Below are positions 15,901 through 57,533 of a stretch of DNA of 64,000 nucleotides, piece by piece. A program made the position numbers and the translations under genes. The notes below the pieces were generated by a model that made no database searches, was not told where the DNA came from, and was given only the letters and a program-made list of their open reading frames with translations. How positions within the stretch are numbered: the first letter of the stretch is position 1; every line of letters begins with the position of its first letter. The stretch lies in assembly GCA_010093815.1 (NCBI GenBank), contig ML996566.1. One strand, given 5' to 3'. Origin of the DNA: Pseudovirgaria hyperparasitica. Lineage: Eukaryota.

Positions 15901-17185
15901 GCAGTCAGAGAGCAATGGATCGAGCAGCTCGAGGAGATTGACGAGTTCAGGAAGCAGAAGGAAGCCCAGCGCCAGGCTCTCGGTCGCGTGCTCGAGGACT
16001 CCAACGAAGCCGACCGCGCGCTCACGTACCTGTCGTCGTCGGCCACAAACGTCACGCTGCGCTGGCAGCAGGGCGCCTTTGTCGGCGGCGGCACCTTTGG
16101 CTCCGTGTACGCGGCCATCAACCTCGACTCCGGCCAGCTGATGGCCGTCAAGGAGATCAGGCTGCAGGACCCGCAAGTCATCCCCACCGTCGTCTCCCAG
16201 ATCAGAGACGAGATGAGTGTCTTGCAGGTCCTCGACCACCCCAACATTGTGTCGTACTATGGGATTGAGCCGCACCGTGACAAGGTCTATATCTTTATGG
16301 AGTATTGCTCGGGCGGCTCGCTTGCTGGCTTGCTGGAGCACGGCCGGATTGAGGACGAGACTGTCATTCAGGTCTATGCGCTGCAGATGCTGGAGGGTCT
16401 TGGATATCTCCATGAGAGCGGTGTTGCGCACCGCGACATCAAGCCTGAGAGTACGTGCCCCGAACCTTCCCTCTCCCCCAATTCCCACAAAACTAATAAG
16501 CCCCCCTACAGACATCCTCCTCGACCACAACGGCGTCATCAAATTCGTCGACTTTGGCGCCGCAAAAGTCATCGCCCGCCAAGGCAAGACCCTCGCCGCC
16601 GAACACACCGCAACCACGACCCGCCAGCCAGGCCGCCAGAAATCAATGGCCGGCGGCACACCAATGTACATGTCCCCGGAAGCCATCAAGGGCATCTCCT
16701 CGTCCAGCACCACCGCCCGCCCCGGCGCCGTCGACATCTGGTCCCTCGGCTGCGTCATCCTCGAAATGGCCACGGGCCGCCGGCCCTGGGCCTCGCTCGA
16801 CAACGAGTGGGCCATCATGTATAATATCGCCCAGGGCATGCCGCCGCAGCTGCCCACGCCCGACCAGCTTAGTGCCTCGGGCGTAGCGTTTCTGGAATGT
16901 TGCTTTGAGAGGGATCCGGGCAGGAGGGCTAGTGCGGCTGAGTTGTTGCAGCATGATTGGATTATGACGTTGCGCGCGCAGTTGAGTTTGGAGACGCCGC
17001 AGACGCCGCAGACGCCGAGCTCGGATGGGGGTGGGAGTGCTGCGGGGGGTGGGGTTGGGGTTGGGAGTGTTGCGGGGAGTGCTGGTGGGTTGGGAGTGGG
17101 ATTGGCGAGTGTTTCGAGTAGTGGTGCTGGGAGTGCGGCTAGTTCGAGGCATGGGAGTGTGTTGGAGGGGGTTAGTGAGGATTAG
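13000..17185 (+). CDS. SSK2: MAP kinase kinase kinase of the HOG pathway, Ssk2/SskB/Wis4 family. Exons 13000-16450, 16512-17185
   Basis: N-terminal ERLEWHSMLASVLTGDVVKQEKKRL, CIPSDRKTFKWAVVALEF and SLLISHFDIMGAR blocks. Kinase motifs GGGTFG, MAVKE, HRDIKPE|NILL (61-nt intron 16451-16511), DFG, GTPMYMSPE, DIWSLG. Confidence 0.96.
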
Positions 17186-19840: not shown

Positions 19841-21556
19841 TCAGACATTCAGACTTTCCAACGTCGATACCACCTGCTCCATCATTTGATGTGGGGACAT
19901 AGGATGCTTCTCATCCTGGTCATCATACGATATACACTTCTCAACAATGCCCCTGTACAGCGAGCCAGTCTTGGATCCCAAAGCGGGTACTCCAAGCTGA
20001 AGAACCTTCTCTTTGAACACTGTATGGGAGTACTTTGGCTTGTAGAGGCTCCTGACACTGCGCCAGAGTCCAATCTCCAGAAGGACAAGGCCAAGCGAAT
20101 AGATGTCAAAAGCTTTGCGGTAACTTTGACGCCACACACCCAGCGAGCTGGGATGTCGATATATGTCCTGGCCTTCGCTGTAGATCGGATCTGCTGTCAT
20201 CTCTGCAAGTCCGTCTGGCCGGGAACTGTCGAATCCAACAACATACGGATGTCTGAGGTCGTGGTGTTGAGCACCACTGGGCATGTTGCCAGTGAAGAAT
20301 AGTACATTATGACTGCTGAATGATTTGTGGAGCCAGTCCAGCGAGTGGAAGGACCACAGCGCGATTGCCAGTGTGTGCGCCAGCTTTATCCGGACGTCGA
20401 GATCCGGCGTCCGTTTGTCCTTGTCGTTATCTCCGAGCAGCGCGTATAGATTCTGGAAAGGAGGGACATTTCCTGCGTTCTGGGCAAGCTCGAGCTGAGG
20501 ACCATTATGTACGACGCCATATCGATGGCTTTTCGTATCTTCAACATAACCCAAACAGTCCAAGGTGTGCAGGTCCGGGTGTCGCGATGAGCAAGAATGT
20601 AGCATGCGCGACAAGTTATCCACCCTTTGGTAGAGATGCAGCCTTGAGTCAAGCTCCATCTCGGCATCGTAGTCGATCCAGTCGATGAGTACGGGCACGT
20701 CCTCTGACACTTTCCCGTCCCGCATGGTGTCCAGAGGCTTCGAGTATACAGCCCGGACCCGCCGCGCAACTGCTTTCTCGCTCGCATCGACTTGGATGCG
20801 CTCGCGGCGGATCTTGAGTTCGGACGAGGACAGGATCTTGCGCGACGGCTCCCGCTCCTTTCCGTCGAGATTGATACGAAGCTGCTTCAGACGCGCAAGC
20901 GTATTCAGACTGGGGTATTTCTCGACAGCAGACGTCTCGAGCAGCTGCAGAATATCAAGGTCGCGCTGGGCAGTGTGGAGAAGCTCGTTCGTCCATGTGC
21001 GCTGCAACGTCTCGACTCTCCCAGGCGGGAAGAGCTTCTCTAATCGGTCATTAAAGTAGGACAGATCCTGGACAAACGTGTCGAATTTCTCTCTATCAGC
21101 TATCACCCATCTGGCCTTGAGCTTCATGTCCTTGCGGAACCTGCTGCCAAACGAACTGGTCGCCGGGTCCGCGGCCTTCTTGCACGTGGAATACGCGTCT
21201 TGGTCAACACTGCCCGGTGCCTCCTCCCGCAGCCCATACTTGTCCTGGAGCTTGTGACAGTCGAGTATCGTGCCCAGGAGCTGTTCCAGGATGTCCTTGG
21301 CCAGGTCTTTGAGGCCCTCCCACGACGTCGAGGAGAGATGAGCTTCAAATCTGCCCTCCACGACGCCCCACTCCCGACCCCAGACCCAGAGCCGCATCTC
21401 CTCGATACGGATCTTGCACACCATCTTCTCGCTGTCTTTCCCGAGGTTCTTGGCCGTGCTAAAGACGCGGTACCCCGTGATGCACCCGTCGAAGAGCTGC
21501 CCAAGCAGCCCGACCGCCCCGACAACGCTCAAGGCCAGACCCGCGATCTCTGCCAT
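19841..21556 (-). CDS. HeLo (prion-inhibition/propagation) domain protein fused to a kinase-like (pseudokinase) domain, 571 aa, single exon
   Basis: HeLo-type N-terminus MAEIAGLALSVVGAVGLLGQLF..., KIRIEEMRLWVWGREWG, ARWVIADREKFDTFVQDLSYFNDRL. C-terminal kinase fold with WLHKSFSSHNVLFF, VVGFDSSR, IYRHP and DIYSLGLVLLEIG. Confidence 0.85.
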   Translation of the reverse strand: MAEIAGLALSVVGAVGLLGQLFDGCITGYRVFSTAKNLGKDSEKMVCKIRIEEMRLWVWGREWGVVEGRFEAHLSSTSWEGLKDLAKDILEQLLGTILDCHKLQDKYGLREEAPGSVDQDAYSTCKKAADPATSSFGSRFRKDMKLKARWVIADREKFDTFVQDLSYFNDRLEKLFPPGRVETLQRTWTNELLHTAQRDLDILQLLETSAVEKYPSLNTLARLKQLRINLDGKEREPSRKILSSSELKIRRERIQVDASEKAVARRVRAVYSKPLDTMRDGKVSEDVPVLIDWIDYDAEMELDSRLHLYQRVDNLSRMLHSCSSRHPDLHTLDCLGYVEDTKSHRYGVVHNGPQLELAQNAGNVPPFQNLYALLGDNDKDKRTPDLDVRIKLAHTLAIALWSFHSLDWLHKSFSSHNVLFFTGNMPSGAQHHDLRHPYVVGFDSSRPDGLAEMTADPIYSEGQDIYRHPSSLGVWRQSYRKAFDIYSLGLVLLEIGLWRSVRSLYKPKYSHTVFKEKVLQLGVPALGSKTGSLYRGIVEKCISYDDQDEKHPMSPHQMMEQVVSTLESLNV

Positions 21557-22166
21557 GGCTGCACATAAAATCCACCGACGGCACACGGTCACAGACGGTC
21601 GCGACAGAGAAAAAGGAGGCGTAGGTGGGAGGATGTGTGTTAGGGGACAAAGTCGCCGAGCAAATTTCATGAGAAACCCCCCGCAGGCCAATCCGACGTC
21701 AGAGTGAAGCCGCTAGTCCCGAAACAGCATCGCGGCCAGTCTCAGCAATCCTCCTCTTCTCCCGAGGTCCTCTTCCTCGTCCTACTTACTGTACACAACA
21801 GGAGAAGACTTGTCCTTCTCCCCAAACAGACTCGCCGCGTCCTTGCTATCGACACGATCGGATCTTTGCTATGACTATGATTTAATTACCTGGCCCTCGG
21901 GCCTGATCAATTTGCCTTCGGATCGATTGTCAAACACGCCGCCTGCGATAAGCACAATGGCGCAACGACAACCTCCTCCTGCGACGCATGTTTGTGCGGA
22001 GGCAGTCTTCAAAAGCACTCCAGGATCGCCCTGCTATCCCAGAATGAAAGCAGGAATCTCTCACTTCTAAAGTCTCTCTCTCTACATTTCTATTCTCTGA
22101 CTGGCCTGGTGCCTTACTGTCTCTCTCTATCTCTCTCTTATTCTCTATATATCAAGCAACGCAACG

Positions 22167-23216: not shown

Positions 23217-26200
23217 TCAAAGTTTAATAGCCAGACGCGGCTTCACGGCGTCAATCGGCTTCGGCTCGGTCATATCAATGGCAGAATCCTGCCTCGAGGG
23301 TGCCGACAATCCCTTCACTAGCGAAATGTTAGTTTCTTCTGTTCAGTCACCATAGTCCTGGTTCTTCTTACATGTCTGTTGTCTCCTATGATTCTCCAGG
23401 AGCTCGATAACAGCCGGCTGAGCATTGACGGTGGCCGCATTCAAGGCATTGTCAAACTTGCCACCCACAAGGTCCATATCAGCGCCCACGTCAAGAAGCA
23501 GCTGAATGACGTCCCCGTGACCGAACGCGGCGGCCGCCGTGAGCGCGGTGTGATATGGGCCGCCAGTCTGGTTGACAGCAGCGCCGCGCTCGAGGAGAAG
23601 CTTGACAATCTCGCTTTGGCCGTTGCTCGCAGCTGCCTGCAATGGGTTGCCGTAGCGGCCGCCGGGGTTGTTTGCAGATGCGCCGGCTTCGAGGAGCATC
23701 TTCACGACGTCGATGAAGCCGTTGCGCGACGCTGCTTGTAGCGGGCTACCGTAGTAGCCTTCGCAGACGTTGAGGTCTGGGTTGTGCGCGAGGAGCTGTG
23801 CGACGACGCGGTGGTAGCCGTTTCGGGCAGCTGCTGATATGGCACTACCGCCTAGGCCGCCTTTGAGCTTCACGTCGGCGCCGTATTCTAGGAGGATCTC
23901 GACTACATCGTCGTGTCCGTTGATTGCTGCGGCTTGGAGTGCGTTGTCGTAGTATCCGTTTTGCTTGTTGACGTCTGCGTCGTGGTCGAGGAGGAGTCTG
24001 ACTACATCCTCGTGGCCGTTGAGCGAGGCGGCGAGGAGGGCGTTCGAATACAGTCCGCCCTGGAAATTGACATCGGCTCCGTGTTTCAGGAGGACTTCGG
24101 TCGCTTTCAGCCTTCCGTTCAAGGATGCCGCCTGGAGTGCATTTCCAAAAGCACCGCCTTGGCTGTTGATGTCTGCACCTCGTGCGATAAGATGCTCCAC
24201 CACTTCCGAGTGTCCATTGTTAGCAGCAGCTTGCAGAGCAAATCCAAAGGGTCCGCCTGTCGCATTAACCTCTGCGCCGTGTTGTAACAGGATATCGACG
24301 AGATCGAAATGACCATGTCTTGCAGCTGATTGCAGCGCGTTTCCATAAGCTCCGCCCCTGATGTTTGCGTTCGCGCCCTTGTGAAGAAGCATTGCAGCAA
24401 CCTCCAAGGAGCATCCGTTGGCCGCTGCCTGAAGAGCACTGCCGTGATATCCGCCCACCGAGTCTAGACCAGCTCCATGATCTAGGAGAAGCTCGACCAC
24501 TGAGTTATGCTTCCCGACCGCAGCAGCTTGGAGAGGATAACCAAAATATCCCCCCTGTGCGTTTGCCGAGTGGCCTTCTCCAATCAGGTGTCGACAATAC
24601 AAGTCGAGCCCAAATAGGGACGTGAAATACAGTGGTGTCGGATCTGTCAAGAGATACGTGTCGAAACGCCTTTGTACACTTATGGAGTGATCACAAAAGA
24701 CTTGTAGCCAGGCAAGCCACTTATGCGTAACTGCAGTACTCCACGACCTACCGAAAAGAGGCAAGGTCGCCTCCTGTACTGAAGGGGCTTTGGCGTGTTT
24801 GAACCAGTAATTCGCGGCGTAGTCCAGAAAGGGATATGCTGCTAGTCTTGTGTCAAGTTCTTCATCGCTGTGGCAAGGACCACTGGAAAGATCATCATAA
24901 CCTAGATAGGTCAGACACATTGAAGTAATCTCAGTCGATGCAGCTGCTTCGTCCATGGCGAAGAATCTGGCAGGCCCCTGTCGCACACGGTCTGATTTCA
25001 AGTACTCCTGAACCGAGTAGTGAGCAAGACCAATGATATCGCCAGTAATGATGATCAGGCTCTTCCATCCGCATAGCAAATCTTCGGGCTTGGAGAACCG
25101 ATCTTCTGGATCCAATTCAGTCGAGCCGTTCTCGATCACAGCAGCTTCGGCAATCTCGAGCAGCGTCATCGGCCTTGCGCCATATATGATGAGCATAAAG
25201 ACACGTAGGAGCAGAGACTTTTCTTCCTCTGACTTGATGTCCACTAATATGCGCTCATATGTCTCGTCTAGAGTATCTGGCAGACCTGTCAGGGCTTTCC
25301 TAATTGCTTTAGGTCGCCTCAAGCCTTTGATACTGTCGAACTGGCACTTCACCCAGCGGAACCTGATGAAGATCAGAGTGGCGCAAAATCAGTAGTCTGT
25401 ACAGGGCTACGTACATTCCTTTCGCGCCTTGTACCAGAGTTTTGATTATATCCTGCTTCAAGTCGGACTTGAGGTTTGCTAAAAAAGGTTCTGCGGCAAT
25501 CTGCTCTCGGACGAACAACTCAACGTCCATAGCGACCGCAGTACTGTTTATTGAAACGGTTTGAAGGTTCAAAAACCTAAAGTCAGTTGAGATGTGCTGC
25601 TCATTACGACTCGTCATTAATAACGATATGGAGTGACTCGATATGAACTCTTGCAGAACGGGTAACAGAAGACTCCATTCCTTGCATTCGTCCAGAGCAT
25701 CGACGAAGACATTGACCTTCTTGAAATATTTTCTGGCAATGACGATGAAAAGAAATGTGAGTTCTTGGGGCGAAGGGCGCACTTTCTCTCCCTTGTACTT
25801 GTCGTAGAGCGATAGAAGATCTCCAGGTACGGTGTCAAGGTTCACTGAGAGTTGATGTATCAAGGAGACCAGTAACCCGGATGCAGTTTGCTTGGCGAGA
25901 TCACGGAAGTCAAAGTAGAAATATACAATGGCAGTGTCGTGAAGTCTGAGCGACTTCTTCTGAAGCCTGTCGATGATAGTAGAACTGTATTCTCGTGTTA
26001 GTGGAGCATTGCAAAAGGACCGAATGCATGCAGCAGCTTACCATAAGATAGTCTTGCCCGCCCCAGCTGCGTGACATGGTGGTTAGTAATGTGATTCAAG
26101 ACTCGTAAATCGGAGACTGACGAATTGCGTGAAGCCACAAGGTGTCCGACTCGGCGGTAGACCATGAGCGAAATTCACTGCCGTCTAGAAACCACAGTCC

Positions 26201-34600: not shown

Positions 34601-37600
34601 ATGGCGATTGCGACAGCAACAGATTCGGTGACTCCAAACTATGAGCGCTTGTACTGGGAGAAAGCGCGCAAGGCCTTCAAGGCTGGTAGACTTGACAAAG
34701 ATGGAGAGAAGACGGAGAGCAAAATCGACGATTTTCTGAAAGAGAGATCTACTCCACAGGAGGCGCGAGAACTATGCAAAGCTACTAAGCAAGCTGCTGG
34801 GGAGGAGTATTCAGCATCTCTAGGTGGCATTCTCGAGAAAATCGAGATCGCAATGCAAGTTGGTGATTTGGCAATTAAGAGCGCACCAGAGTCTGTTGGG
34901 CTTGCGTGGATGGGAATCCGGCTATGCTTGCACTCCGTTGCAGACGACTTCTCTACCTTCAGCATCTTTGGCCAGGCCTGCTCAGACATAATTGGGATCA
35001 TGATATCTTGTGCCGTCTTTGGGAAGATGTATGGACCCTCTAGAGGCGTCAACTCCTTTCACGAGATCCATTCACAAGTAACGGACAGAATTCCTAAAGT
35101 CTACACAGAGATCTTAGATTTTTCATATTCCGTGAAGAAACATATGGGCCACAATAAAGCATGTAAGTACGATCTTTACCACACTTCGATATTTTAAGGT
35201 ATCTCATAAATATAGATCGCATTGGTAAAGGCTTGCTGGTTCAAGCTTCTACGAGGTTCGAGGCTAAGATAAAGTCGATTAAGAATCATGACACTACTAT
35301 GGCCGAGTTCGCTCGAAGAGCTTACGAACAACTGTCTGACTACTACCTACGTACGGGTTTGACTAACCAAGAAGCAATGATGGGCGATCTGACCAAGATC
35401 AAGAGCAAGATGGAAATGTCGTTACGCATAAATCAGGACAACGCCGATCAGATGCGAGTTCTTATTGACGAGATCAAGAAGAGGAAAGAGATGACACCAC
35501 ACGATGTTGCTGTCAAGAACTACGAAGAGAACATGAAACAGTTTGGCGGGTCTAGTGATCAGAAAGCAGTATATGCAGCCAAAATCTCGAGAAGATCTCC
35601 CCCACAGACTTGTACTTGGATCTTTGACATGGAGTTGTTCAAATCCTGGTATGTCTCAGAGAAGAGCAGCGTCCTATGGGTATCAGGAGGGGGTGGTTTC
35701 GGCAAATCCATTCTGATGTCTGCCATCATCAACGAACTCCAGGACCGGGCCAAGGACACCGGAGCACATGTTCAGTATTTCTTTTGCAACGCTGGTGATG
35801 AGTCGACGAAGAGGACTGATCGAATTCTGAAGCATTTACTCTATCAGATGTACAGTCTATTGGAGCATCACTCGACAGAAGCGCTCGAGAAAGCGAACAA
35901 GCTTGTGTCTAATTTTCTTAAAAACAGGTCAACCTCCTCCAAGGAGAGCAAAGGCGACAACAAAAAGGACGATGTTGACTTTGCTAAAGTGTTTAGGGGA
36001 CTTGTCGGACTAGTTGGAAAACCCATCTTTATCGTTGTTGATGCTCTGGATGAATGCATTGATCGATCCGAGGGTTTACTGAGCTCGCTCAAGTATCTCG
36101 TGGATGGATCTACTTCAAACATTAAGTTAGCAATCTGTAGTCGGCCTGAGGCAGATATTGAGACTGCCTTTGAACAAATCCCTAGAATCAAAGTAGAAGG
36201 GAACAATGGGCCGGACATCAAACTCAATGCCCAAAGTGAGCTAGCAAGACTCCCTGGGCTGACGTCACACGAGCGAGCAACAGCGTGTGATAAGATTGTA
36301 GAGAAAGCTGGAAGCTTGTTCCGATATGTCGAGCTGGCGGTCAGATTCTTGAAACAGCCCTGGCAGCGTCCTCTCGAGCGACATCTAGAACAGCTCCCTA
36401 TTGGTCTCGAGGCAGCTTACGAACAGACCGTTCGAAATATCGACCCTGCGTATTTAGAATTGTTGAAGACCTGCTTGACATGGACTTGTCTTGCTGAAGG
36501 ACAGATTCGTGTCCCAGAAGTGATCGATGCTTATAGTCGTAAGTATGTCGTAGAACAAGAATCTCATGAAGCTGGGGATGTAGAGTCCATTGAAGAGCCA
36601 GAAGCTCAAGAGGATCTGCATGTGGATCAAATTCGAACCGCTGGATCTGCCTTCTTAGAGGTCGATTCCATGACTCGGGTCATCCAGTTGAGACATGCCA
36701 CTGTAGCGGACTATTTTCTTGGAGCAAAGCCTGAAGTCCAAACAGAAGAGCAGTGCCTATGTAAAAACTGCACAAGAACAGGGAACAGCCAGAAGTCTTT
36801 TGCTCTATCAGAGAAGCATGGGCACTTAACGATGGCTACGACTATACGTGAGTCTCTCTGTGGGCAATCCCTGCTAAAATTCCGAGCTAAAACCTGTGTA
36901 GTCAAGCATTTGTCGTGTGAATCTTTCCGCCAGGAATTCCTTGTGTCTTTCGAAAGGCGCGATGTCAAGGAGACGGTGGATACTCATGATAAATCAGGAG
37001 AAGAAGAAGAACAACAAGAACAACAACAACAGAACGACGAAAGCGAAGCTAAGAACGTAAATACTAACGACGGTGATATGACGGTCGAGCCTACTCAAAG
37101 CTCAGAATTACCACCTTCAGGGACAGAAGATGGTAAATCATCAGAGGAACCGATTAACACGGGAAATACTACCACCGACCAAAGTAGCGAAAAGGAACAA
37201 GACGCAGAATCCGAGATCGCATCTGCCACAGATAGCGATGCTGATATAGATCCTCTGGATCCTGTCCAGGCTGACTCTGACGATGTACAGGATCCAGGAG
37301 CTCGCTTCAGGTACGAGATCCACTACTTTCAGTTTCACATGTGCAAGGTCGAGGAGCTGTGGGAAGCGGAAGACCGAAAGGGTCCGGAATGGGAAGAGTA
37401 TGAAGCTCTTCAGGATTCATTCTTCGTCAAGGACTCTCCCTTCTTTCAGTCATGGATCAACCTCAAAAACCAAGCGCAGGGCAGTGCAATTTCATGGATA
37501 TTTGATATCAAAACTATTCATCCCATACACATAGCCGCGGCATACGGGCTGACCAGTTTAGCTGGGCGACTCATCGAGCGGGGTGCAGATCTTGCAGCTG

Positions 37601-39956
37601 TCACAGATGAAGGCTACACAGCACTTGATTTTGCTGTTGAGCATTACGGCTTTTCCAAAACGGAAGAAAGAGCCCACAAGAATGTCCTAAGACTCCTTGA
37701 GCTTCTTTTGAAAGCAGGTTCCGACCCCAATAACCTCGACAAAAGGACGGCGCGTACTCCCTTTTTACGCTTGTTCTGGCAGAACCCTAAAATTGAAGCC
37801 ATCCAGATATTCTTGGACAATGGCGCTGATGCCAAGGGTGTTGACCTGGCCTGGGGTGCAGGCTCTCTGCACTATTGCTGTGGCAATTGTGATGATCCAG
37901 CTGTACTTAAGGCACTTTTGGCTGCAGGTGCTGATCCGAACCTCGAGGACAATAGTGGTGAAACACCATTACATTTCCTGATGATGACGTGGAAACAGGA
38001 TTCACCCCTCGAGCTGGTAGATATCATGATCAGCGGTGGTGCCAATGTCAACGCGGAGGATAAGACCGGACAGCGTAAGTATCGCCTGGTATCAGACTGT
38101 TCTGTATTGATTGGTATTCAGGGCCACTATACGAGCTTTGTTGGTCTGGAAATGTTGAAGTCGCCAAGATATTGATCAAGAATGGTGCTGACGTGACAGA
38201 TGATGATGTGAGTTTCTGATGACTCTTCGGCCAATCGGACTTGACTTTGGCAACTGCTTATGATCTTAGGTCAATAAAATCACCGCTTTGCACATGGCCT
38301 GTCGAGCAGGCAATACAGATCTCGTGCTTCTTCTTATCGAACATGGAGCTCAGATGTCAGCCGTGGATGACAGAGGCTGCACTCCTCTATACTACAGTTG
38401 TGAAGCTAAAACAGATACAACAGCTCTTGCGCTGATAGATAGGCTTGGCACTGATGGTCTCACCGTACTGGGACTCGCCAACTCTGATGGAAAATCGCCT
38501 ATCCGGAAGGCCGCAGCGCGGGGACACCATAAAATCGTCGAAGCATTATTTGAGAAGTTGGGTTTAGACATAGCTGTTCTTGAGACTCAAGATAAGAAAC
38601 AGCAATGGACACCCCTACATGCAGCTGCCCACAATGGCCAAAAGGAGGTCGTTGAATTCATCTTAAGCAAAGGCGTGAATATCAACATTCTTGATAGGAG
38701 AGGGGACACGCCACTCAAAACATGCTTAGCATCCTGGAGAGACACTAGGACACAGGATTACGAATTTGTTGCGCTCAAGCTGTTAGATGCGGACCCGTCT
38801 AAGATTAGTGGAACCGAACTCTTACATTCAGCTGCAATAAGAGGAAATTTGGCAGTTCTCAACAAATTAATGGATAAAGGTGCCGATCCGTTACTACAGG
38901 ATGAACACGGTTGGACCTCCGTGCAAGTTGCTCGGCAATGTGGGCAAGATGAAGCCGCCTCTCTGCTATCATCGAAACGGGCTGTGACTGGCATTCGACC
39001 TAGTGGGTTGGTGAATACGCTACCGAAGATCTTCGACGTCTCAGGGGACGGCACCAGCATGACAGCGATGACAAGTACACCCCCTTACTGCAGACTTTTC
39101 ATCTCCGTTACTAATCTTCTGACCAGAGAAATGCGAAGGCTCACTCTTGGCCAATCATCCCATACCCGCCGGGATAGACGGTTTCTACTATGAGATCGAA
39201 GTTGACTGCCCAAATGCGCCATCACCGGACGCCCCTGCAGCAGAGGAATACCCGTAAGGCTCATTTTTCGGATAAGATGGCACTGACTAACATCTGCACA
39301 GGGAAGTTGCACTTGGTCTCTGTCCCCACACGGCCCGAACACGAGGCTGGCTTCCTGGCCGCAGCTGGCCTCGCAATCCAGCTTGGGGATACCACGGCGA
39401 TGATGGAAGTCTGTGGCCTGTCGTTTCAGGTGACAAACCTCACGCAGGTCTGCATGCAAGAGGTCACTTTATTGGAAATTTTGGCCATGCAGACGTTGTG
39501 GGCTGCGGTATCGATTTCACAAATAACAAAGTTTTCTACACCAAGAATGGCGAACTGCTTCGGACCTTGTCTCAAGAGAAACCTCCCACTCATTACGCTT
39601 TTGCCGAAGTCACCGGGCGTTTGTACCCTGTGGTTGGGACATCGAGGCAGAACTTGACAATCAAAGTCAACTTTGGCGGCGACCTGGAGACCAAGCCGTA
39701 CAAGTGGACGCCCGGTAATGCAACTGATTGTGGTAGCAAGTACCTCAGGGAGCTTGAGGAGGATCTGATCGCAAACCCTCCGAAGGTGGAACCTGAAAGG
39801 CCAACGAGTGCATCCAGTTCAGCTAAAGCTGTGGATGAGGATGGAAAGGAAAGCGGTGTTGAAGCTGATACTGCAGTCACTGTGGCTATTGGCGTGCCGG
39901 AAAAGACAAGTGTGGACGTTCGTGTGAACGATGTAGCTCAAGTCGCTGATAAGTAG
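34601..39956 (+). CDS. Fungal NLR-like STAND protein: helical N-terminal domain, NACHT, ankyrin repeats, C-terminal SPRY/B30.2. Exons 34601-35162, 35216-36847, 36902-38074, 38122-38207, 38270-39074, 39127-39253, 39302-39956
   Basis: APESVGLAWMGIRLCL N-domain; LWVSGGGGFGKS Walker A; IVVDALDEC; ICSRPE; HATVADYF; ankyrins (GETPLH, WTPLHAAA). After splicing, SPRY motifs ANHPIP..FYYEIEV, WLPG, WGYHGDDG, DVVGCGIDF, FYTKNG, LYPVVG, VNFG. Confidence 0.88.
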
Positions 39957-50626: not shown

Positions 50627-53056
50627 ATGCCTCCTCCAATAGGTAGACAAGAATAGCAGCTGTCATGTCAGGGCATGTCATTAATCTGAGGTACAGATGC
50701 AGATACAATACGAATTCTGGTTGCTACAGACAATCACGTTGGCTATAATGAGCGCGATCCCATCCGTGGATCCGACAGCTGGAGGAGTTTCGATGAGATC
50801 ATGTGCCTTGCCAAAGAACGTGATGTCGACATGGTTCTTCTCGCGGGAGACCTATTCCATGAGAACAAACCGAGCAGAAAAGCTATGTATGAAGTCATGA
50901 GAAGCCTACGAATGAATTGCTTTGGCGAGAAACCGTGTGAGGTCGAGATGTTAAGTGATGCAAGTGAGAACTTTCAAGGGTGAGCCCCCTCCTGGTTCAA
51001 GGAGAAGCGTGAACTGAATGTGGTCAGAGAGTTTAATCATGTTAACTACGAAGATCCGGACATCAACGTCGCGATACCGGTTTTTTCCATACATGGTAAT
51101 CACGATGATCCTTCCGGTGAGAATCATTTAGCGGCTCTGGATATTCTTCAGATGTCCGGTCTGTTGAACTACTATGGCCGAACACCCGAATCCGATAATA
51201 TCGCCATCAAGCCAGTCCTGCTTCAGAAAGGCCGCACGAAACTTGCGCTGTACGGAATGAGCAACGTTCGCGATGAGAGATTGTTTCGCACATTCAGAGA
51301 CGGTAAGGTCAAGTTCTTCCAGCCAAGTACAGCAAAAGATGAATGGTTCAATCTGATGAGCGTGCATCAGAACCAGTAAGCCCACAGATCTGTGTCGAAG
51401 AGATGCAATGCTAAAGATTTGCAGCGCTGCTCATACAGAGACCAGCTATCTCCCCGAGAACTTTTTGCCCGAATTCATGGACCTTGTAATATGGGGGCAC
51501 GAGCACCAATGTCTGATAGATCCACGCTACAATCCTGAAATGTCGTTCCACGTAATGCAGCCAGGTTCTTCTGTAGCCACATCTCTTTCCCCAGGAGAGA
51601 CTGACACTAAGCACATTGCGATTCTCAGTGTCACTGGGAAACAATTCAAGAGCGAGCCCATTCAGCTAAAGTCAGTTCGACCGTTCATCATGAAAGATGT
51701 CGTCCTACAGAACGAGCGCGCCCTGAGAGATGTATGGAGACAGGACGACAACAGGACTAAGGTTACGCAACATCTGATAGGGATCGTTGACAAGATGATT
51801 GCGCAAGCCAAGACTGAATGGAATGAGGCTCAAAATGACCCGAGCGTTGAAGCCCCACTCCCACTGATACGCCTTCGCGTAGAATACACGGCCCCAGAAG
51901 GTGGTAAGTTCGACTGTGAGAATCCACAAAGGTTCTCGAACAGATTCGTAGGGAAGGTGGCCAACGTCAATGATGTGGTCCAATTCCACAGAAAAAAGAC
52001 AGCTTCGCGAAAAGCCAGGGATGCCCCCGAGCTCCCAGAAGAGCATATCATGGACCAATTAGCGCTTGATTCAGTCAAAGTTGAGAAGCTAGTACGCGAA
52101 TTTTTGACTGCACAGTCACTCACGATTCTACCTCAGAACACCTTCGGCGATGCAGTCAGTCAATTCGTCGATAAAGATGACAGACATGCGATGGAGATTT
52201 TCGTGAACAGCAGTCTAGCAAGCCAAGTCAAGCATCTGTTGGACAAGGATGATATTGACGAGACTGAGATAAATGACGCTATGGAAAGTTACCGTGTGCA
52301 ACTAGAGGAGATGTTTGCTACTGGACAAGTTCGGGCAAACAAAGGGAAGCGCAAATACAAGCCGAAGCCGCCAAATTGGGATAGTGATATGGATGGTGAT
52401 TGGGAAGAGCAACCAGGAGCACTCATTATCTCAGATAGAGAGAGTGGTAATGGTGACGAAGATGACGATGAAGAACGCAGAGCTGCGACGACTCGTGGGC
52501 GCGCACGAGGCCGGGCAGGTAAAGCTTTAGGTACAGGCACAACTCGGAAAACCATCACTGCGAAAAGGAATTCTGCCAAGGCGCCTGCTAAAGCTGCACC
52601 AGCTAGAGGGAAGAAGAAGATCGTCCAAGAGGAATCGGAGGAGGAAGATGATGACGTAATTATGATTGACGACGACGACGAGAATGATGATGATGGTGAT
52701 GAAAGCCAGGGGCTCTTTGTATCTTCAAAGACTACCACTGCGAGAAGACCTCCGTCCAAGGCTCTTGGAAGTGCACGAGCAAAGTCGCCAGTGAAGAAGC
52801 CGACAGCACGAGCTGCAGCAACAGCGTCTGCTAGACAGACTAAATTGGATTTCTCTCAATCTGCGGTGCGAAGTCAAAAGATGCAGGCTAACACCCGAGG
52901 AAGGGCGGTCGAGCCAGTAAGTGTTTTTCCACATGCAACCACCTCTTGAACTTTGAAGCTGAGTTCCTTGACTAGAGTGACGATGAGATATCCGACGATG
53001 ACGACGACGACGCGTTTGAACCGGCACCTCCCGTAACGAGAAATTCTCGGCGATGA
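50627..53056 (+). CDS. MRE11: Double-strand break repair nuclease Mre11. Exons 50627-50642, 50697-50979, 51028-51375, 51425-52916, 52976-53056
   Basis: [73 protein letters not shown]. Confidence 0.98.
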
Positions 53057-54001
53057 AGAGCTTGTACAGGGCAATTGCCCAGGTATGGTCTTTGTAGAAA
53101 AGCAAAGGGGTCTTGGTCGAGTCTACTTTGCATAGCGAAAGGCGTTGCCTCAAAATGCCAAACATGATTGCATCCACAAGCAACCTAAGTGTTGCAGATA
53201 TAGAGTGGTAGCATCTTCAAATCTTGTATTTCAAGGTTTGTGCCCAGACTCTTCCAAAGCTGTTGCGACCTATGTATGTCACCTCTTTTTGATGGGATTT
53301 TGATGGCTTTCGCTCTCTTTGGTTTGCACCATGCTCCTTCTCTGAGTCTACGTTCTCCTTCCAAGTCCCCTCTTCTCTCATAAGTTGCCGCCGTGTGCCA
53401 GTATGTCGGTTCAGGGACATGTACCTCGCCGTGCATCCCATCGTTTCCTTTCGGTTTACGCCCTCGCGGGAAGGAGAGCAGCATATGCCCTACCTGGTGG
53501 TTGGAAGGGACCAGACGCCGGCCATGATGCCTACCAGACTTCTCCTAGACCTCCTTCTCTTCTTGTAGTCCCTACCGCTTCCAAAGTTATCAACCCATGC
53601 CAGTCATGTCGCCGCTTCGCAACTGCCGCATCGTGAAGCTCGTCATATATGGCTTCTTCTTCACCCTCATCAACCTCTTTTTCCTCCTCCATGCATCACA
53701 TTCGATCACTTTTGCTCCACATTCCGTTTCTTTATTCCACACCCACACAGTGTCTCAATCGCTTGGATAGATCAGACTCTGACTAGCATCAGGACTCCAC
53801 TGGTATGTGTGCCCATCTGCTTCTTTCTGGCAACCACTCCGAATGTGCATGCAGAGAGATTATGCTTAGTGACGTTCTGATATTCGGGTTAGACATTCTC
53901 ATCAACGATCTCTATACCACCCCACATACTCAACTGCCACCCCTGACAGCACTGTACCCAGTCGACGTGTTTGAATACGACACGAAAGCAAAAGACGGAG
54001 G

Positions 54002-57000
54002 ATGACAGCATACAAAGTCGAAGAGCTCTTGGCTCTCAGAGATTCGGCATCGGAGTCTGCTGTTTCATTTATCGAGAAGTTCGGTGATGAAGATGCAATT
54101 AAGGGTAAGCAAGCATGCACAGTTCACGATATTCGTCCCCTACACGCTACTGGTCATGCACGGTTGCCACGTCCAATCAGCTCACGCTCTTGGTGCGCTT
54201 TCTTTCTTTCCACTGACCATGCATGGTTATTCCTCACGTCCACTTGATCCTCAGCTTCGCTCCTCTTTCTTGGCTCATTCTTCTCAAACCACCCTCTCTC
54301 CATCTTATACAGTCAATCCTACTCCTTGAATACATCGTATCATTACCTTCCTTAGCTTTAAAGCCAGTTCTATCCTCATGAATCCCACCGCCCGACCGTT
54401 CGTGCCTGTAGAAAAGTGGCATTACAATCACTATCCTGTTACACCATCACCGGATGAGGAAGACGAATGGGAGGAGAACCCAGAAGATTTTTGTTGGAGA
54501 AGGCTGACACCACGTACTGCAGAGCATGTTCTGCGTCCTTCAGCCTCTGCCGGAGTGATAGGCTCGCAGCTGATGGGTAATCGCATGCGTCCCTCTGCAG
54601 GCACAGCCAACGGTAACAACAAGAAACCTTCACCCTCTCCTTCGTTTAAACGAAAGACTGTCGAGCGCATGATCAAGGAGCACGGTAGTCCCCCTGGTAT
54701 GCGAGTCACGGCTGGTGGCCGGGTTGTGCCTATTGACCTGCCGCCGCTAAGCAGTCCTCGATTTCCCTTCAACAACGCAAAGTCTCAAGCGACTAGCCGC
54801 GCAACTTCGGCTCCACAGCTCTTTGCCAATCACAACAACAGCATCAACGGCTCTGTCTTTCCCTTCGCGGGTCATTCGCCCTTGTACGTTGTCAACAACC
54901 ACATTTGCCAGCTCGTCAACGGACAACTTGTTCCCCTAGCACTACCTGTCTACGAGAACAACGGAGTGCTGCCCTCACCTCAGTTCCCAACGATGACTGC
55001 CATGGCGATGGGTGATCAGTATATGCCACAGCTCACTAATGGCTTTCTTGCACCTGTTCCTCCTGTCAATCTGTCTCCACTTGCTCAGGCGATTCCTATG
55101 CATTCTGGAATTCCGCCAATGCCATCTGCCGTACCAAGTCAACAGGTGGCCTCTGATCCAGGCATTAACCTCGCTACGAAGATCAAGATACTTGAAGATG
55201 AGTACAGTAAGCTGGAGAGTCAGCTGAAGGAGCTTGAGCGCCTTGAAGTTGTGCAGTCTGATCCAAGGGGACCGCAATGGCGACAAGAAGTCGTGAAGAC
55301 GAAGCGGACCTTCATTACTGTCCTTGACATTATTCGCAAGCTGCTCAAGGCTCTGCGCGCTGGTAGCTCTGACGGCGGAAATGCCATCGACGCGAACCCT
55401 CAACCGCTCCCCAGCTCCCTATCAACCGGTCACTCCCAGCCACCGAATGCGCACTTACAGCTTTCCACCTTGTCAGGTCTGGGCAACACTGCCCTGGGAC
55501 CATCGCCTGTCTCGCAGCCCACCCAAATGGATATGTCTGCCTACTACCAATCGTTTGGTTACCATCCTCAGCTTGAGCTCCAGGCGCCTGTCACGAACCA
55601 GGCCTCAGTACCAACCACTCTGGGCGCTCCGCTGTCCACAGCCAACGGGAGTGGAACCTTTGCTGTAGCAAATCCTCCTTCCCAATCTACTTCATCGAAC
55701 GGCATCTTAACACACAACAGCGGTCAGCCACCTTCTCCGTGGCGGTCAAATGGCCCACGTCGGTCACATGCAGTTGAGATCAAAGATCCTCGTGACGGTT
55801 CCAAGAAGTCAACTGGACAGCAGTCTAAGTCTGCACTCAATCCTACGAGTCCGACGTACGAACCCAATTCTCGAGTCAAGACACCAGAGCCGCGATCACC
55901 TGGCATCTTCGTGCCTCCCTCTCCCTCACCAATACCGTCCCCAAGTCGTCATGAAGCCATCGAGGCTCAACATCCCTGGTTGTTCGACCAGTCTGATCAC
56001 CATGGCAACGTGGAAGGACACAAGAGCGCCTCTGGAAAGACTGTTAAGCACAAGTCTAGTGCCGCCAGCGTCCAGACGGCCGATTTCTTCCCGGTCAATA
56101 CTCACGAACACTCGAACAAGACTCCTAGTGGCGCTGCGAGCAAGTCAGGAAGTCCTCTGAAACTCGGAAATATTGAGGGGGCGCCAGCTACACCGGAGAA
56201 GAAGTTCTTGATGGACTTTGCCGAAAGCCAGTTTCGAAGTCCGAATGACGAGAATTCTCATCCTGCGGCTCCTCCTGTTTCTCCAGCGGACGCCCGGGGA
56301 TCGTCTCACAATGGTGATCTAAGTAAAAGCTACGATAGATACTCCATGTCCAGTGCCGACACATTGAAGCAGACACTGACAACCACCGAACATGCACATA
56401 CATTTGTGACTTCAAGCTTAGATGCTAAAACCTTCGGAAGCATAAGATCTGGTCAGGACTTGTCTACATTGCCAGTGCACAAGCCACAGCCCACAAAGCT
56501 CAACTCGGACTCTTGGCTAAGGGGCTACGGTGCGGGTATGAATCGAAGCTGTCTTCCAGACGGTGCAGACGAGGACTTTGTCGCCGGGTATTGTCGGGGC
56601 CTACAAGACTGGCAGAAGTCTCAGAGAAGCCAACCTGGAAATCCAGGAAAGTTTACGGAAGTGTTCCATACGAGCTCCACTACTCTTTCTTCAAGATCAC
56701 CTGCTAATGTCGTGGCTCTTGAATTGACTGCGAATGGCATCGCCGTTCCTACTAGAAGACCGCATGCCCCTGACCATCCTCACTGTCCTCCTGGTCTTGG
56801 GGCAAGACCTTCTGTGGACGTTGGCTTTGTCACTCGTCCCGGCTCTAACATCTGGAGCCCTACTAAGACCGATGGGTTTCCGAAGGACTTTCAAGCCCGG
56901 CGACAAGTTCCAGCTCCAATAGGCACTTCTGCTACTCAAGGCGCGGAGCATATAATCTTCGATCAGCGTGCGGCATCAAGTTCTCCAATGATGAGTCTCT

Positions 57001-57533
57001 CGCGCAGTGTTCAGCCGAGCTACACCATTGACTCACAGAGCTCGAGAGCCTTTCCAGCGAGTTTTCCTTCGCAGGTTGCTCCACCTGTGTCCAGCCAACG
57101 CTACTACCCTCCTATGAGGGCGCCAGGCCAGCACGTGCCGCATCATAGTCCTCGAAAGGGTGATCCCAGTCGTATTTCTCAATGTGATGGTGCACTCGAT
57201 GACATGGTCGATGTTGTCACGGACTCTGGACCCAGTTCCCCCCCAGCTTCCAAGACTACCGGGACCAGATCCAACGGCAATTCACCAAAGAAGGGCGAGT
57301 CTCCTGCGAAAGCCAAGCTCGAGCAGATTGCGAACAGTGTAGCAAAGCAGGTCCGAGGGAACCGAAGCAAGAAAACTGCCGAAGATGAGCAAAAGCCTGG
57401 AGATGACCCTGCGCACATGAGCACTCAAGATAAAAGGCGCTGGAGAGAAAATTGGCGCAAGCGGTTCGGCGACCTCAAGAACAGAGAGAAAGAAGAGATA
57501 GATCGCTATCAACAGGAGAATGCTACTGATTGA
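54002..57533 (+). CDS. Large, mostly disordered hypothetical protein. Isoform A exons 54002-54104 + 54523-57533; isoform B single exon 54378-57533
   Basis: 1051-codon ORF from ATG 54378. Upstream exon MTAYKVEELLALRD...DAIK with GTAAGC donor (54105), GCTGAC branch (54503) and CAG acceptor (54522) joins it in frame at EHVLRP. Confidence 0.8.

What the first reader, a model, noticed from the sequence alone, without database searches (positions are those of the whole stretch)
54002..57533. Unannotated candidate cap-to-tail translational regulator (eIF4G-like motifs without MIF4G)
Seen: a ~1040-aa low-complexity protein with motif islands: YKVEELLALR, RVTAGGRVVP, a coiled coil, RRSHAVEIKDPRDG (55758-55799), SALNPTSPTYEP (55830-55865), paired GYxxG motifs and a basic C-terminal helix. 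Known: human eIF4G binds PABP through KRERKTIRIRDPNQG, and SxLNPxAxxFxP is PAM2. Inference: co-occurring eIF4E-, PABP-RRM- and MLLE-type motifs with no recognisable HEAT/MIF4G domain suggest an eIF4G-competing repressor or mRNP-granule scaffold. Each short motif alone could be chance.
Basis: inference. Interest (0 to 1): 0.82.

Follow-up and report, generated by a model that had tools for sequence, protein, structure and literature searches.

The report
Fungal disordered eIF4E-binding scaffold candidate
This is a two-exon fungal gene for a roughly 1040-residue, mostly disordered protein, found only in one class of fungi, whose conserved N-terminus looks like and is modelled as a binder of the mRNA cap-binding factor eIF4E; this suggests an undescribed translation regulator, while its proposed link to the poly(A)-binding protein remains untested.

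Summary
The gene has exon 1 at 54002-54104, a 418-nt intron, and exon 2 at 54523-57533, and encodes 1037 aa. All the motifs are at the stated coordinates. The gene has no Pfam family.

It belongs to an uncharacterised family that is named only from Dothideomycetes. Overall identity to relatives is about 30%.

The N-terminal YX4L-Phi motif keeps its Tyr in 69 of 74 members. A homologue's first 50 residues were modelled onto a stand-in eIF4E with ipSAE 0.82, against 0.00 for the best control. The contacts fall on the dorsal and lateral residues known from solved fungal eIF4E complexes. Similar complexes are already solved, so this shows likeness to them and does not prove binding.

- The PAM2-like motif is conserved, but it has an invariant Ser where PAM2 has Ala, Tyr where PAM2 has Phe, and Asp as often as Asn.
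- The eIF4G-like "DP..G" tail is not conserved.
- Neither motif could be tested for binding.

Verdict: probably a new family of large eIF4E-binding scaffold proteins, analogous to 4E-T and Eap1 but not homologous to them. Its other partners are unknown.

The parts
53803..53892 (+). probable 5'UTR intron (90 nt, GT..AG)
   Evidence: In each run, the contig that starts at 53892 carries 9 loose letters that match 53793-53801 (sequence). This is weak evidence: one contig per run, and both runs come from one sample.
54002..54104 (+). exon 1: start codon, 34 codons plus the first base of codon 35
   Evidence: Translation. Homologues share this N-terminus.
54011..54040 (+). canonical eIF4E-binding-type motif (YX4L-Phi followed by Arg), residues 4-13
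   Evidence: Tyr is present in 69 of 74 family members that have the motif, and Ser in 5. In the model of a homologue, the equivalent Tyr5, Leu10, Leu11 and Leu13 touch HPL 44-46, V78, W82 and L143 of eIF4E. These are the same dorsal residues named in PMC6061780.
54105..54522 (+). intron (418 nt, GTAAGC...CTGAC...CAG)
   Evidence: Sequence. A contig joint skips 418 nt in 2 runs of one sample, and an unspliced contig is also present. The junction agrees with homologues.
54523..57533 (+). exon 2 up to and including the stop codon
   Evidence: Open frame. Homologues cover it to the C-terminus.
54523..54551 (+). second conserved block, residues 35-44 (EHVLRPSASA); candidate non-canonical eIF4E-binding motif
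   Evidence: H 80 of 84, R 89 of 92. It ranks 54 of 1028 windows. Residues 36-39 and 42 of the homologue touch eIF4E 86-89 in the model.
54621..54749 (+). most conserved island of the family, residues 68-110 (Ser/Pro-rich basic stretch, short helix, RVTAGGRVVP); partner unknown
   Evidence: Ranks 1 of 995 windows. Columns are invariant in A1. Modelled as a helix plus short strands at pLDDT about 65-75.
54882..54935 (+). small three-stranded beta-meander, residues 155-172
   Evidence: Strands in both models, with pLDDT 78-91. No meaningful fold match: best Z 2.8.
55164..55361 (+). helical hairpin / coiled coil, residues 249-314
   Evidence: Corresponds to helices 240-267 and 274-307 of homologue P0006, at pLDDT 95-98. 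Conserved at rank 90 of 972 windows.
55758..55799 (+). conserved motif RRS[HR]A[IVL][EQ]IK.P, residues 447-457, plus an unconserved tail to residue 460
   Evidence: Column counts: A451 in 116 of 116, I454 in 115, P457 in 116; D456 in only 21 of 116 and G460 in only 13 of 112. Ranks 33 of 1027 windows.
55830..55865 (+). PAM2-like motif S.L[DN]P.SPTYEP, residues 471-482
   Evidence: L 115, P475 116, S477 116, P478 116, Y 111, P482 116, each of 116. It is the only match to the loose PAM2 pattern in six frames of the window.
56052..56117 (+). conserved island with DFFP.NTHEHS, residues 545-566; partner unknown
   Evidence: Ranks 31 of 1016 windows. Columns are nearly invariant in A1.
56511..56615 (+). 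two helices carrying the paired GY..G motifs, residues 698-732
   Evidence: Corresponds to helices 669-678 and 686-703 of P0006, at pLDDT 77-94. The Gly residues are invariant or nearly so.
57186..57203 (+). conserved acidic motif DGA[LM]DD, residues 923-928
   Evidence: Ranks 48 of 1032 windows.
57282..57347 (+). conserved SPKK..SPAKAKLEQ stretch with a short helix, residues 955-976
   Evidence: rank 95 of 1016.
57405..57530 (+). basic C-terminal long helix, residues 996-1037
   Evidence: Corresponds to helix 1006-1041 of P0006, at pLDDT 89-95. A Trp is nearly invariant.

Best explanation
The gene encodes a member of an uncharacterised family of about 900-1200-residue, largely disordered proteins. 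The named members are all Dothideomycetes. I read it as a large eIF4E-binding scaffold, a functional analogue of 4E-T, Cup and Eap1.

Proposed mechanism:
- The first ~45 residues form a bipartite eIF4E-binding region. A canonical YX4L-Phi helix sits at residue 4. After a short Ser/Glu-rich linker comes a second hydrophobic block.
- The rest of the chain carries a helical hairpin that may pair chains, and about eight conserved short motifs that would recruit other partners, so far unknown.

Shown: gene structure, the splice, family membership, where conservation lies, and the absence of known domains.
Modelled only: the eIF4E contact.
Inferred: competition with eIF4G, repression, and a scaffold role.
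For: - Gene model and splice.
- No Pfam family for the window ORF or for 7 full-length homologues.
- Family size: 137 hits, and 419 cluster representatives at E<=1e-3.
- All named members are Dothideomycetes.
- The first 115 residues are 66-82% identical to many homologues, while the whole protein is about 30% identical.
- Tyr of the motif is kept in 69 of 74 members. Leu9 and Leu10 are each kept in 60 of 67.
- Complex model: P0006 residues 1-50 with the eIF4E of Coniochaeta pulveracea, residues 25-247. The ipSAE was 0.82, 0.82 and 0.81 in three runs, and the best of 3 controls was 0.00. The runs agree in at least 79% of contacts, and the partner's pLDDT is at least 71.
- Calibration of that mark, from the tool: reached by 51 of 78 solved complexes and 2 of 108 mismatched pairs. 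On eukaryotes it was reached by 39 of 65 solved pairs with no like complex among older structures, and by 2 of 126 unrelated pairs.
- Contacts: Tyr5, Leu10, Leu11 and Leu13 lie on H44-P45-L46, V78, W82 and L143. Residues 36-39 lie on 88-89. The passages read from PMC6061780 name the equivalent HPL, V81, W85 and L146 of Chaetomium eIF4E as the dorsal site. They also describe canonical plus non-canonical (lateral) binding for fungal eIF4G, p20 and Eap1p, and note that p20 has its motif at the very N-terminus, as here.
- 752 of 1046 residues of the homologue model are below pLDDT 50, which fits a protein made mainly of short linear motifs.
Against: - 5 of 74 members have Ser in place of the Tyr while keeping the rest of the motif. 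The named ones are Aplosporella, Phyllosticta and Diplodia; one is unnamed. In human 4E-T, Y30A alone abolishes eIF4E binding (passage read). So either this lineage lost or weakened binding, or the motif is kept for another partner.
- The complex test has limits. It used a homologue's N-terminus, not the window's own spliced sequence. The eIF4E came from another fungal class as a stand-in. The alignments I supplied were not used. Similar eIF4E-peptide complexes are solved, so the pass may come from memory. The tool states it is untested on peptides and disordered chains.
- The minimal motif occurs by chance in 965 of 5000 shuffles.
- There is no direct evidence on translation, localisation or phenotype.
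- The most conserved island (residues 68-110) is unexplained by this reading.
Confidence: 0.55

Rival explanations
1. The protein binds eIF4E at its N-terminus and also binds the poly(A)-binding protein, through an eIF4G-like RRM-binding motif (residues 447-460) and a PAM2-like MLLE ligand (residues 471-482). It would hold cap and tail together in a repressed loop that lacks eIF4G's ribosome-recruiting domain.
For: - Both motifs are conserved islands, ranking 33 of 1027 and 38 of 1026 windows.
- Leu473 and the aromatic residue at 480 have the 7-residue spacing of the two residues called crucial for fungal Pab1 MLLE binding, L132 and F139 of Upa1 (passage read).
- Pro at position 12 is invariant.
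- The loose PAM2 pattern arises in only 43 of 5000 shuffles and occurs once in six frames of the window.
- Trp can replace Phe in known variants (passage read), so the aromatic pocket is not strictly Phe-specific.
Against: - Ser replaces the consensus Ala in 116 of 116 sequences, and the passage says a bulkier side chain there is unfavourable.
- Tyr is found in 111 and Phe in only 4 of 116.
- Asp replaces the hydrogen-bonding Asn in 63 of 116.
- The Asp and Gly that make residues 447-460 resemble the human eIF4G string occur in 21 of 116 and 13 of 112 homologues.
- The human string itself could not be verified, and I know of no evidence that fungal eIF4G uses such a motif (recalled, not tested).
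Confidence: 0.15
2. The N-terminal motif serves a partner other than eIF4E. Candidates include another helix-binding module of mRNA-decay or signalling complexes, or a nuclear factor. On this view the protein is a disordered scaffold unrelated to cap-dependent translation, and the likeness to YX4L-Phi is coincidental.
For: - 5 of 74 members lack the Tyr but keep all the other motif residues.
- The minimal pattern is common by chance (965 of 5000 shuffles).
- The strongest conservation lies elsewhere, at residues 68-110 (rank 1 of 995), with basic, NLS-like and Ser-Pro stretches.
- Models of peptide complexes can pass from memory.
Against: - The model places the peptide exactly on the known dorsal and lateral residues with low expected error, and all 3 controls scored 0.00.
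- The second conserved block lies at the spacing expected for a non-canonical motif.
- The motif sits at the extreme N-terminus, as in yeast p20.
Confidence: 0.22
3. The protein binds a non-canonical eIF4E paralogue rather than the main eIF4E. It would then silence specific mRNAs, in the manner of 4EHP-specific binders.
For: - The complex test cannot tell which member of a family binds.
- Fungal-looking metagenome contigs encode divergent eIF4E-family members besides the canonical one (loci such as L092, L111 and L114).
Against: No paralogue was tested. The modelled contacts use residues that are invariant in canonical eIF4E.
Confidence: 0.08

Closest known systems
4E-T (EIF4ENIF1) and Drosophila Cup
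   Same: A protein of about 1000 residues that is mostly disordered. It has a YX4LL-type eIF4E-binding site near the N-terminus and further conserved short motifs that recruit other mRNP proteins. The passages read from PMC3950672 describe the critical Tyr30 and the C-terminal P-body-targeting sequences.
   Different: There is no detectable sequence homology: no Pfam family, including the 4E-T family, at E<=10 in 7 homologues or at E<=1 in the window ORF. 4E-T is known from animals (recalled). The Cup homology domain was not looked for by structure. The conserved islands here have no counterpart that I could identify.
Yeast p20 (Caf20p) and Eap1p
   Same: [quoted passage not shown] In p20 the canonical motif sits at the very N-terminus, so no upstream 'bracelet' can form (passages read from PMC6061780). 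The motif here begins at residue 4.
   Different: p20's complete eIF4E-binding region is its first 49 residues, and I recall the whole protein as small. Eap1p's motif is internal, and its binding fragment is K80-G150. Neither shares detectable sequence with this family beyond the motif: no Pfam match and no PDB chain match to exon 1. This family is about 1000 residues long and its named members are all Dothideomycetes.
PAM2-bearing scaffolds of fungal mRNPs (Upa1, Upa2 of Ustilago maydis)
   Same: Large proteins with short linear motifs in disordered regions that tie mRNP components together. The passages read from PMC11572963 state that Upa2 carries four PAM2 sequences. The Leu-to-aromatic spacing of the motif at 471-482 equals that of PAM2.
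   Different: The motif here departs from the consensus at three of five defining positions, in a fixed way. Binding to Pab1 is untested. Upa1 and Upa2 are basidiomycete endosomal-transport proteins with no eIF4E motif reported in the passages I read.
eIF4G
   Same: It competes for the same eIF4E surface through the same kind of bipartite motif.
   Different: This protein has no MIF4G/HEAT domain or any other eIF4G domain, so it cannot recruit eIF4A or eIF3 in the known way.

Membership tests
eIF4E-binding proteins (functional class defined by bipartite binding) | Canonical YX4L-Phi motif | tested here: met
   Residues 4-10 of the window protein. Tyr is kept in 69 of 74 family members with the motif, and is Ser in 5.
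eIF4E-binding proteins (functional class defined by bipartite binding) | Non-canonical motif a short linker downstream that contacts the lateral surface of eIF4E | tested here: inconclusive
   A conserved block lies at residues 35-44. In the model, residues 36-39 and 42 of the homologue touch eIF4E 86-89. This is a model only, made with a stand-in eIF4E.
eIF4E-binding proteins (functional class defined by bipartite binding) | Physical binding to eIF4E and competition with eIF4G | not testable with these tools
   Only a prediction is available: ipSAE 0.82 against 0.00 for the best of 3 controls. The mark was reached by 51 of 78 solved complexes and 2 of 108 mismatched pairs.
4E-T / EIF4ENIF1 family | Sequence homology to the family profile | tested here: not met
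   Pfam-A scan: 0 families for the window ORF at E<=1. In 7 full-length homologues there were only chance-level hits to unrelated families at E<=10.
Caf20/p20 and Eap1 families | Sequence homology beyond the canonical motif | tested here: not met
   No Pfam family. Exon-1 peptide against PDB chains gave only one chance-level hit, to a PP2A subunit at E 3.1. The family profile against PDB gave two chance-level hits at E 0.58 and 0.91.
PAM2 ligands of the MLLE domain | Leu at position 3 and Pro at position 12 of LNxxAxEFxP | tested here: met
   Leu in 115 of 116 and Pro in 116 of 116.
PAM2 ligands of the MLLE domain | Asn4, Ala7 and Phe10 of the consensus | tested here: not met
   Position 4 is Asn in 53 and Asp in 63 of 116. 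Position 7 is Ser in 116 of 116. Position 10 is Tyr in 111 and Phe in 4 of 116. The consensus and the roles of these residues come from passages of PMC7356810.
PAM2 ligands of the MLLE domain | Binding to the MLLE domain of Pab1 | not tested
eIF4G | MIF4G/HEAT domain | tested here: not met
   No Pfam match. Apart from four short helical or strand segments, the model is disordered.
   The core RRS.A.[EQ]IK.P is conserved, but the Asp occurs in 21 of 116 and the Gly in 13 of 112. The human string was not found in any paper or PDB chain.

The most novel reading that the evidence does not exclude
The family is a class-specific 'closed-loop mimic'. One chain would hold eIF4E through its N-terminus and Pab1 through a derived Ser/Tyr variant of PAM2, and would pair through its helical hairpin. 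This would lock whole mRNAs into a silent cap-to-tail loop without eIF4G.

In this particular species, retention of the 418-nt intron or an internal start at 54378 would swap the eIF4E-binding N-terminus for an N-terminus that begins with a near-consensus PAM2. That would give two isoforms with opposite end preferences.
Probability: 0.1. Interest if true: 0.8.

Novelty: new member of a known kind. Interest (0 to 1): 0.5.

Why it matters
I found no described eIF4E-binding regulator for filamentous ascomycetes. The 2020 review of fungal eIF4E interactors sets Pezizomycotina aside (passage read). My searches for the family's motif strings and locus tags found no paper. Paper supplements and non-CC papers were not searched.

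Dothideomycetes include many plant-associated and rock-inhabiting fungi. A class-wide, rapidly evolving scaffold with a conserved eIF4E handle would offer a way to study how these fungi control translation.

The family is also a clean example of a protein held together by short motifs. About 30% overall identity contrasts with near-invariant islands. The strongest island (residues 68-110, including RVTAGGR) has no known partner and would be worth a partner screen.

If the N-terminus does not bind eIF4E, the interest falls to that of an ordinary lineage-specific disordered protein.

Tried and rejected
- Own genome: none is held, so the organism's own eIF4E and Pab1 could not be used. The control genomes of the genome search are prokaryotic and hold no eIF4E (reached through a bacterial Amt locus).
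- Source of eIF4E: I scanned metagenome contigs with a recalled eIF4E motif pattern. One exon (L088) was used as a query, and it returned only Sordariomycete and Leotiomycete eIF4Es in the 120 rows listed. That is why a stand-in was used.
- RNA evidence: no RNA holder is listed for the locus. The two runs laid are of unrecorded kind and come from one sample.
- Distant relatives:
  - The profile search over 1.84 billion representatives gave 419 hits, but only the best 150 are shown, and all are strong family members.
  - Ten divergent hits were either unnamed or from Elasticomyces or Meristemomyces.
  - A search with residues 1-115 of P0006 at E<=10 gave no named hit outside Dothideomycetes.
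  - The ESM Atlas returned only the family's own and unnamed Ascomycota clusters, and nothing for the N-terminal part.
  - So absence outside the class is not proven.
- PDB by sequence: nothing for exon 1, nothing for residues 436-490, and only chance-level hits for the family profile.
- Fold search: the 121-residue model of residues 60-180 (mean pLDDT 63.9) had a best Z of 2.8 among 48,161 chains. This is not meaningful.
- Earlier findings of this scan: none by place, sequence or words.
- Literature: one search gave general 4E-BP papers, and one search was too broad to be useful.
I worked the coordinates out by hand.
- Considered and rejected:
  - The 54378 ATG as the true start. Homologues and the splice joint place it inside the intron.
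  - The 'meiotic recombination' name that some databases give the family. It comes from gene models fused to the upstream Mre11 gene.
Full report
1. WHAT IS THERE

The window has eukaryotic, fungal-type genes. The neighbours include an ammonium transporter, a MEKK4-like kinase, HeLo and NACHT/ankyrin genes, Tfb4 and, directly upstream on the same strand, Mre11.

At the finding's coordinates, an ATG at 54002 opens 34 codons. These end at a GTAAGC donor. A CTGAC branch site and a CAG acceptor close a 418-nt intron at 54522. Exon 2 is open to the stop at 57531-57533. The product is 1037 aa.

Two lines of evidence support the splice:
- Database homologues read ...K|EHVLRPS... across the same point.
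- One contig in each of two public runs joins 54103/4 to 54522/3 with GT..AG ends, while another contig in each run reads through the intron. The two runs come from one sample and their kind is not on record.

A 9-letter loose end also suggests a 90-nt intron in the 5'UTR, at 53803-53892. The long ORF that tools list from 54378 therefore starts inside the intron.

2. THE OBSERVATION

The gene has no Pfam family. Nor do 7 full-length homologues, even at E<=10.

A search of 5.8 billion proteins gave 137 relatives. A profile search of 1.84 billion cluster representatives gave 419 at E<=1e-3, 228 at E<=1e-10 and 160 at E<=1e-30. Every relative that carries an organism name is a Dothideomycete. The orders represented include Pleosporales, Botryosphaeriales, Venturiales, Dothideales, Mytilinidiales and Trypetheliales, as well as rock-inhabiting black fungi. 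Only the best 150 profile hits are shown, so relatives in other classes are not excluded.

Some homologues are named 'meiotic recombination' or carry Mre11 domains. These come from gene models fused to the conserved upstream neighbour.

The best hit is only 32% identical over the whole protein. The first 115 residues of P0006, however, are 66-82% identical to many homologues.

3. WHERE CONSERVATION LIES

I aligned the spliced protein with 116 homologues. All 121 proteins then held were used, except the two window pieces and 3 Mre11-fused models longer than 1400 aa. Conservation is concentrated in islands. The counts below give the number of equally long windows that are at least as conserved:
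- residues 4-13: 83 of 1028
- residues 35-44: 54 of 1028
- residues 68-110: 1 of 995
- residues 95-104: 1 of 1028
- residues 447-457: 33 of 1027
- residues 471-482: 38 of 1026
- residues 545-566: 31 of 1016
- residues 923-928: 48 of 1032
- helical hairpin 249-314: 90 of 972
- GY..G helices 698-732: 99 of 1003
- C-terminal helix 996-1037: 230 of 996

The highest peak is the island around RVTAGGRVVP, for which nobody has a partner.

AlphaFold2, run on the 59-sequence alignment, models homologue P0006 with 752 of 1046 residues below pLDDT 50. The confident pieces are a small beta-meander, a helical hairpin (pLDDT 95-98), two helices over the GY..G pair, and a long C-terminal helix. A separate model of window residues 60-180 reached mean pLDDT 63.9. 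It found no meaningful fold match, with a best Z of 2.8.

4. THE N-TERMINUS AND EIF4E

Residues 4-13 fit YX4L-Phi followed by Arg.

Of the 268 family proteins held, 184 have the RVTAGGR core. A recognisable N-terminal motif is present in 74 of those. The rest are mostly gene models that start downstream. Among the 74, Tyr is present in 69 and Ser in 5. The named Ser-bearing members are Aplosporella, Phyllosticta and Diplodia.

No genome is held for the window. I therefore fetched fungal eIF4E indirectly and modelled residues 25-247 of a Coniochaeta eIF4E with residues 1-50 of homologue P0006.

Result of the complex test:
- ipSAE was 0.82, 0.82 and 0.81 in three runs, and the best of 3 controls was 0.00.
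- The runs agree in at least 79% of contacts, and the partner's pLDDT is at least 71.
- The tool's mark was reached by 51 of 78 solved complexes and 2 of 108 mismatched pairs. On eukaryotes it was reached by 39 of 65 solved pairs with no like complex among older structures, and by 2 of 126 unrelated pairs.

The contacts are the textbook ones:
- Tyr5 lies on H44-P45-L46 and V78.
- Leu10 and Leu11 lie on V78, F81, L143 and residues 146-147.
- Leu13 lies on W82.
- Residues 36-39 of the second conserved block lie on residues 88-89 of the lateral face.

The passages I read from PMC6061780 support this reading. They name the equivalent HPL, V81, W85 and L146 of Chaetomium eIF4E. They describe the bipartite dorsal-plus-lateral mode for fungal eIF4G, p20 and Eap1p. 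They also note that p20's motif sits at the very N-terminus.

Limits of this test:
- The partner was a homologue, not the window's own spliced sequence.
- The eIF4E is from another fungal class.
- The alignments I supplied were not used.
- The tool is untested on peptides.
- Similar complexes are solved, so the pass shows likeness to them and does not prove binding.

The Ser variants also count against a universal role. Y30A alone abolishes binding in human 4E-T (passage read from PMC3950672). The minimal pattern is common by chance, occurring in 965 of 5000 shuffles. I put eIF4E-family binding at about 0.7.

5. THE PROPOSED PABP CONTACTS

The motif at residues 471-482 is sharply conserved in the 116 homologues:
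- Leu: 115
- Pro475: 116
- Ser477: 116
- Pro478: 116
- Tyr480: 111
- Pro482: 116

Its Leu-to-aromatic spacing equals that of the two residues called crucial in the fungal PAM2-MLLE complex (passages read from PMC11572963).

However, it departs from LNxxAxEFxP at three defining positions. The Ala is always Ser, and the passage says a bulkier residue there is unfavourable. The Phe is Tyr in 111 sequences and Phe in only 4. The Asn is Asp in 63 of 116. A motif this constant in its differences looks like a ligand for its own partner. That partner may or may not be an MLLE domain.

For residues 447-460, the conserved core is RRS[HR]A[IVL][EQ]IK.P. The Asp and Gly that create the likeness to the human eIF4G string occur in only 21 of 116 and 13 of 112 homologues. 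I could not verify the human string in any paper or PDB chain.

No binding test was possible, so I put Pab1 binding at about 0.15-0.2.

6. MECHANISM

The best-supported picture is a large eIF4E-binding scaffold. The N-terminal bipartite region occupies the eIF4G-binding surfaces of eIF4E. The protein lacks any MIF4G/HEAT domain, so a cap bound in this way cannot recruit the ribosome by the known route. The hairpin may pair chains. The conserved islands would recruit further factors. Ser-Pro clusters beside the binding region would suit regulation by phosphorylation, but that is inference only.

This works like 4E-T, Cup or Eap1. The protein is not a member of those families, because homology was tested and not found.

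7. NOVELTY AND VERDICT

The kind of protein is known: an eIF4E-binding protein with canonical and non-canonical motifs. The family appears undescribed. No paper holds its motif strings or four of its locus tags. The 2020 review of fungal eIF4E interactors leaves Pezizomycotina out (passage read from PMC7139794). Supplements and non-CC papers were not searched.

I rate it a new member of a known kind, with interest 0.5.

The boldest reading not excluded is a cap-to-tail silencing loop, with an intron-dependent isoform switch in this species. I put it at about 0.1.

Noticed in passing
54378-54407 (inside the intron 54105-54522): An ATG in frame with exon 2 opens onto ten residues that fit the PAM2 consensus better than the exonic motif does (Asn, Ala, Phe and Pro are all in place, with Met where Leu would be). 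It is the only match to [LM]N..A..F.P in all six frames of the window, 127,996 residues. Unspliced contigs exist. However, six other ATGs precede it in an unspliced mRNA, and the stretch is not seen in homologues. It is probably chance, but an isoform with a different N-terminus is not excluded.
   Followed up: partly
homologues P0011, P0013, P0017, P0133, P0254: The named ones are Aplosporella, Phyllosticta and Diplodia. All five have Ser in place of the Tyr of YX4L-Phi, while the following residues are unchanged. This is a natural test case for whether the motif's conserved role is eIF4E binding.
   Followed up: partly
51360-52949 (+): Mre11 lies directly upstream on the same strand. The same adjacency must hold in several Pleosporales, because database gene models fuse the two genes (P0075, P0092, P0098, P0246). 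Other models inherit the names 'meiotic recombination' or 'DNA repair exonuclease'. This is an annotation error that has spread through databases.
   Followed up: partly
53803-53892: A probable 90-nt GT..AG intron in the 5'UTR. It is inferred from a 9-letter loose end on the contig that begins at 53892.
   Followed up: no
19841-21712 (-), 23343-26037 (-), 35167-39193 (+): A cluster of fungal NLR-type genes: a HeLo domain with DUF7580, and two NPHP3_N/NACHT genes with ankyrin repeats. Genes of this type are associated with fungal non-self recognition.
   Followed up: no
12484-16824 (+): A long ORF with a protein kinase domain and a MEKK4 N-terminal match, which looks like an Ssk2/Ssk22-type MAP kinase kinase kinase.
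   Followed up: no
loci L092, L111, L114, L148 (metagenome contigs): The motif scan for eIF4E also picked up a divergent, fungal-looking eIF4E-family paralogue group with its own conserved sequence around the cap-binding Trp. These are possible alternative partners for the N-terminal motif.
   Followed up: no
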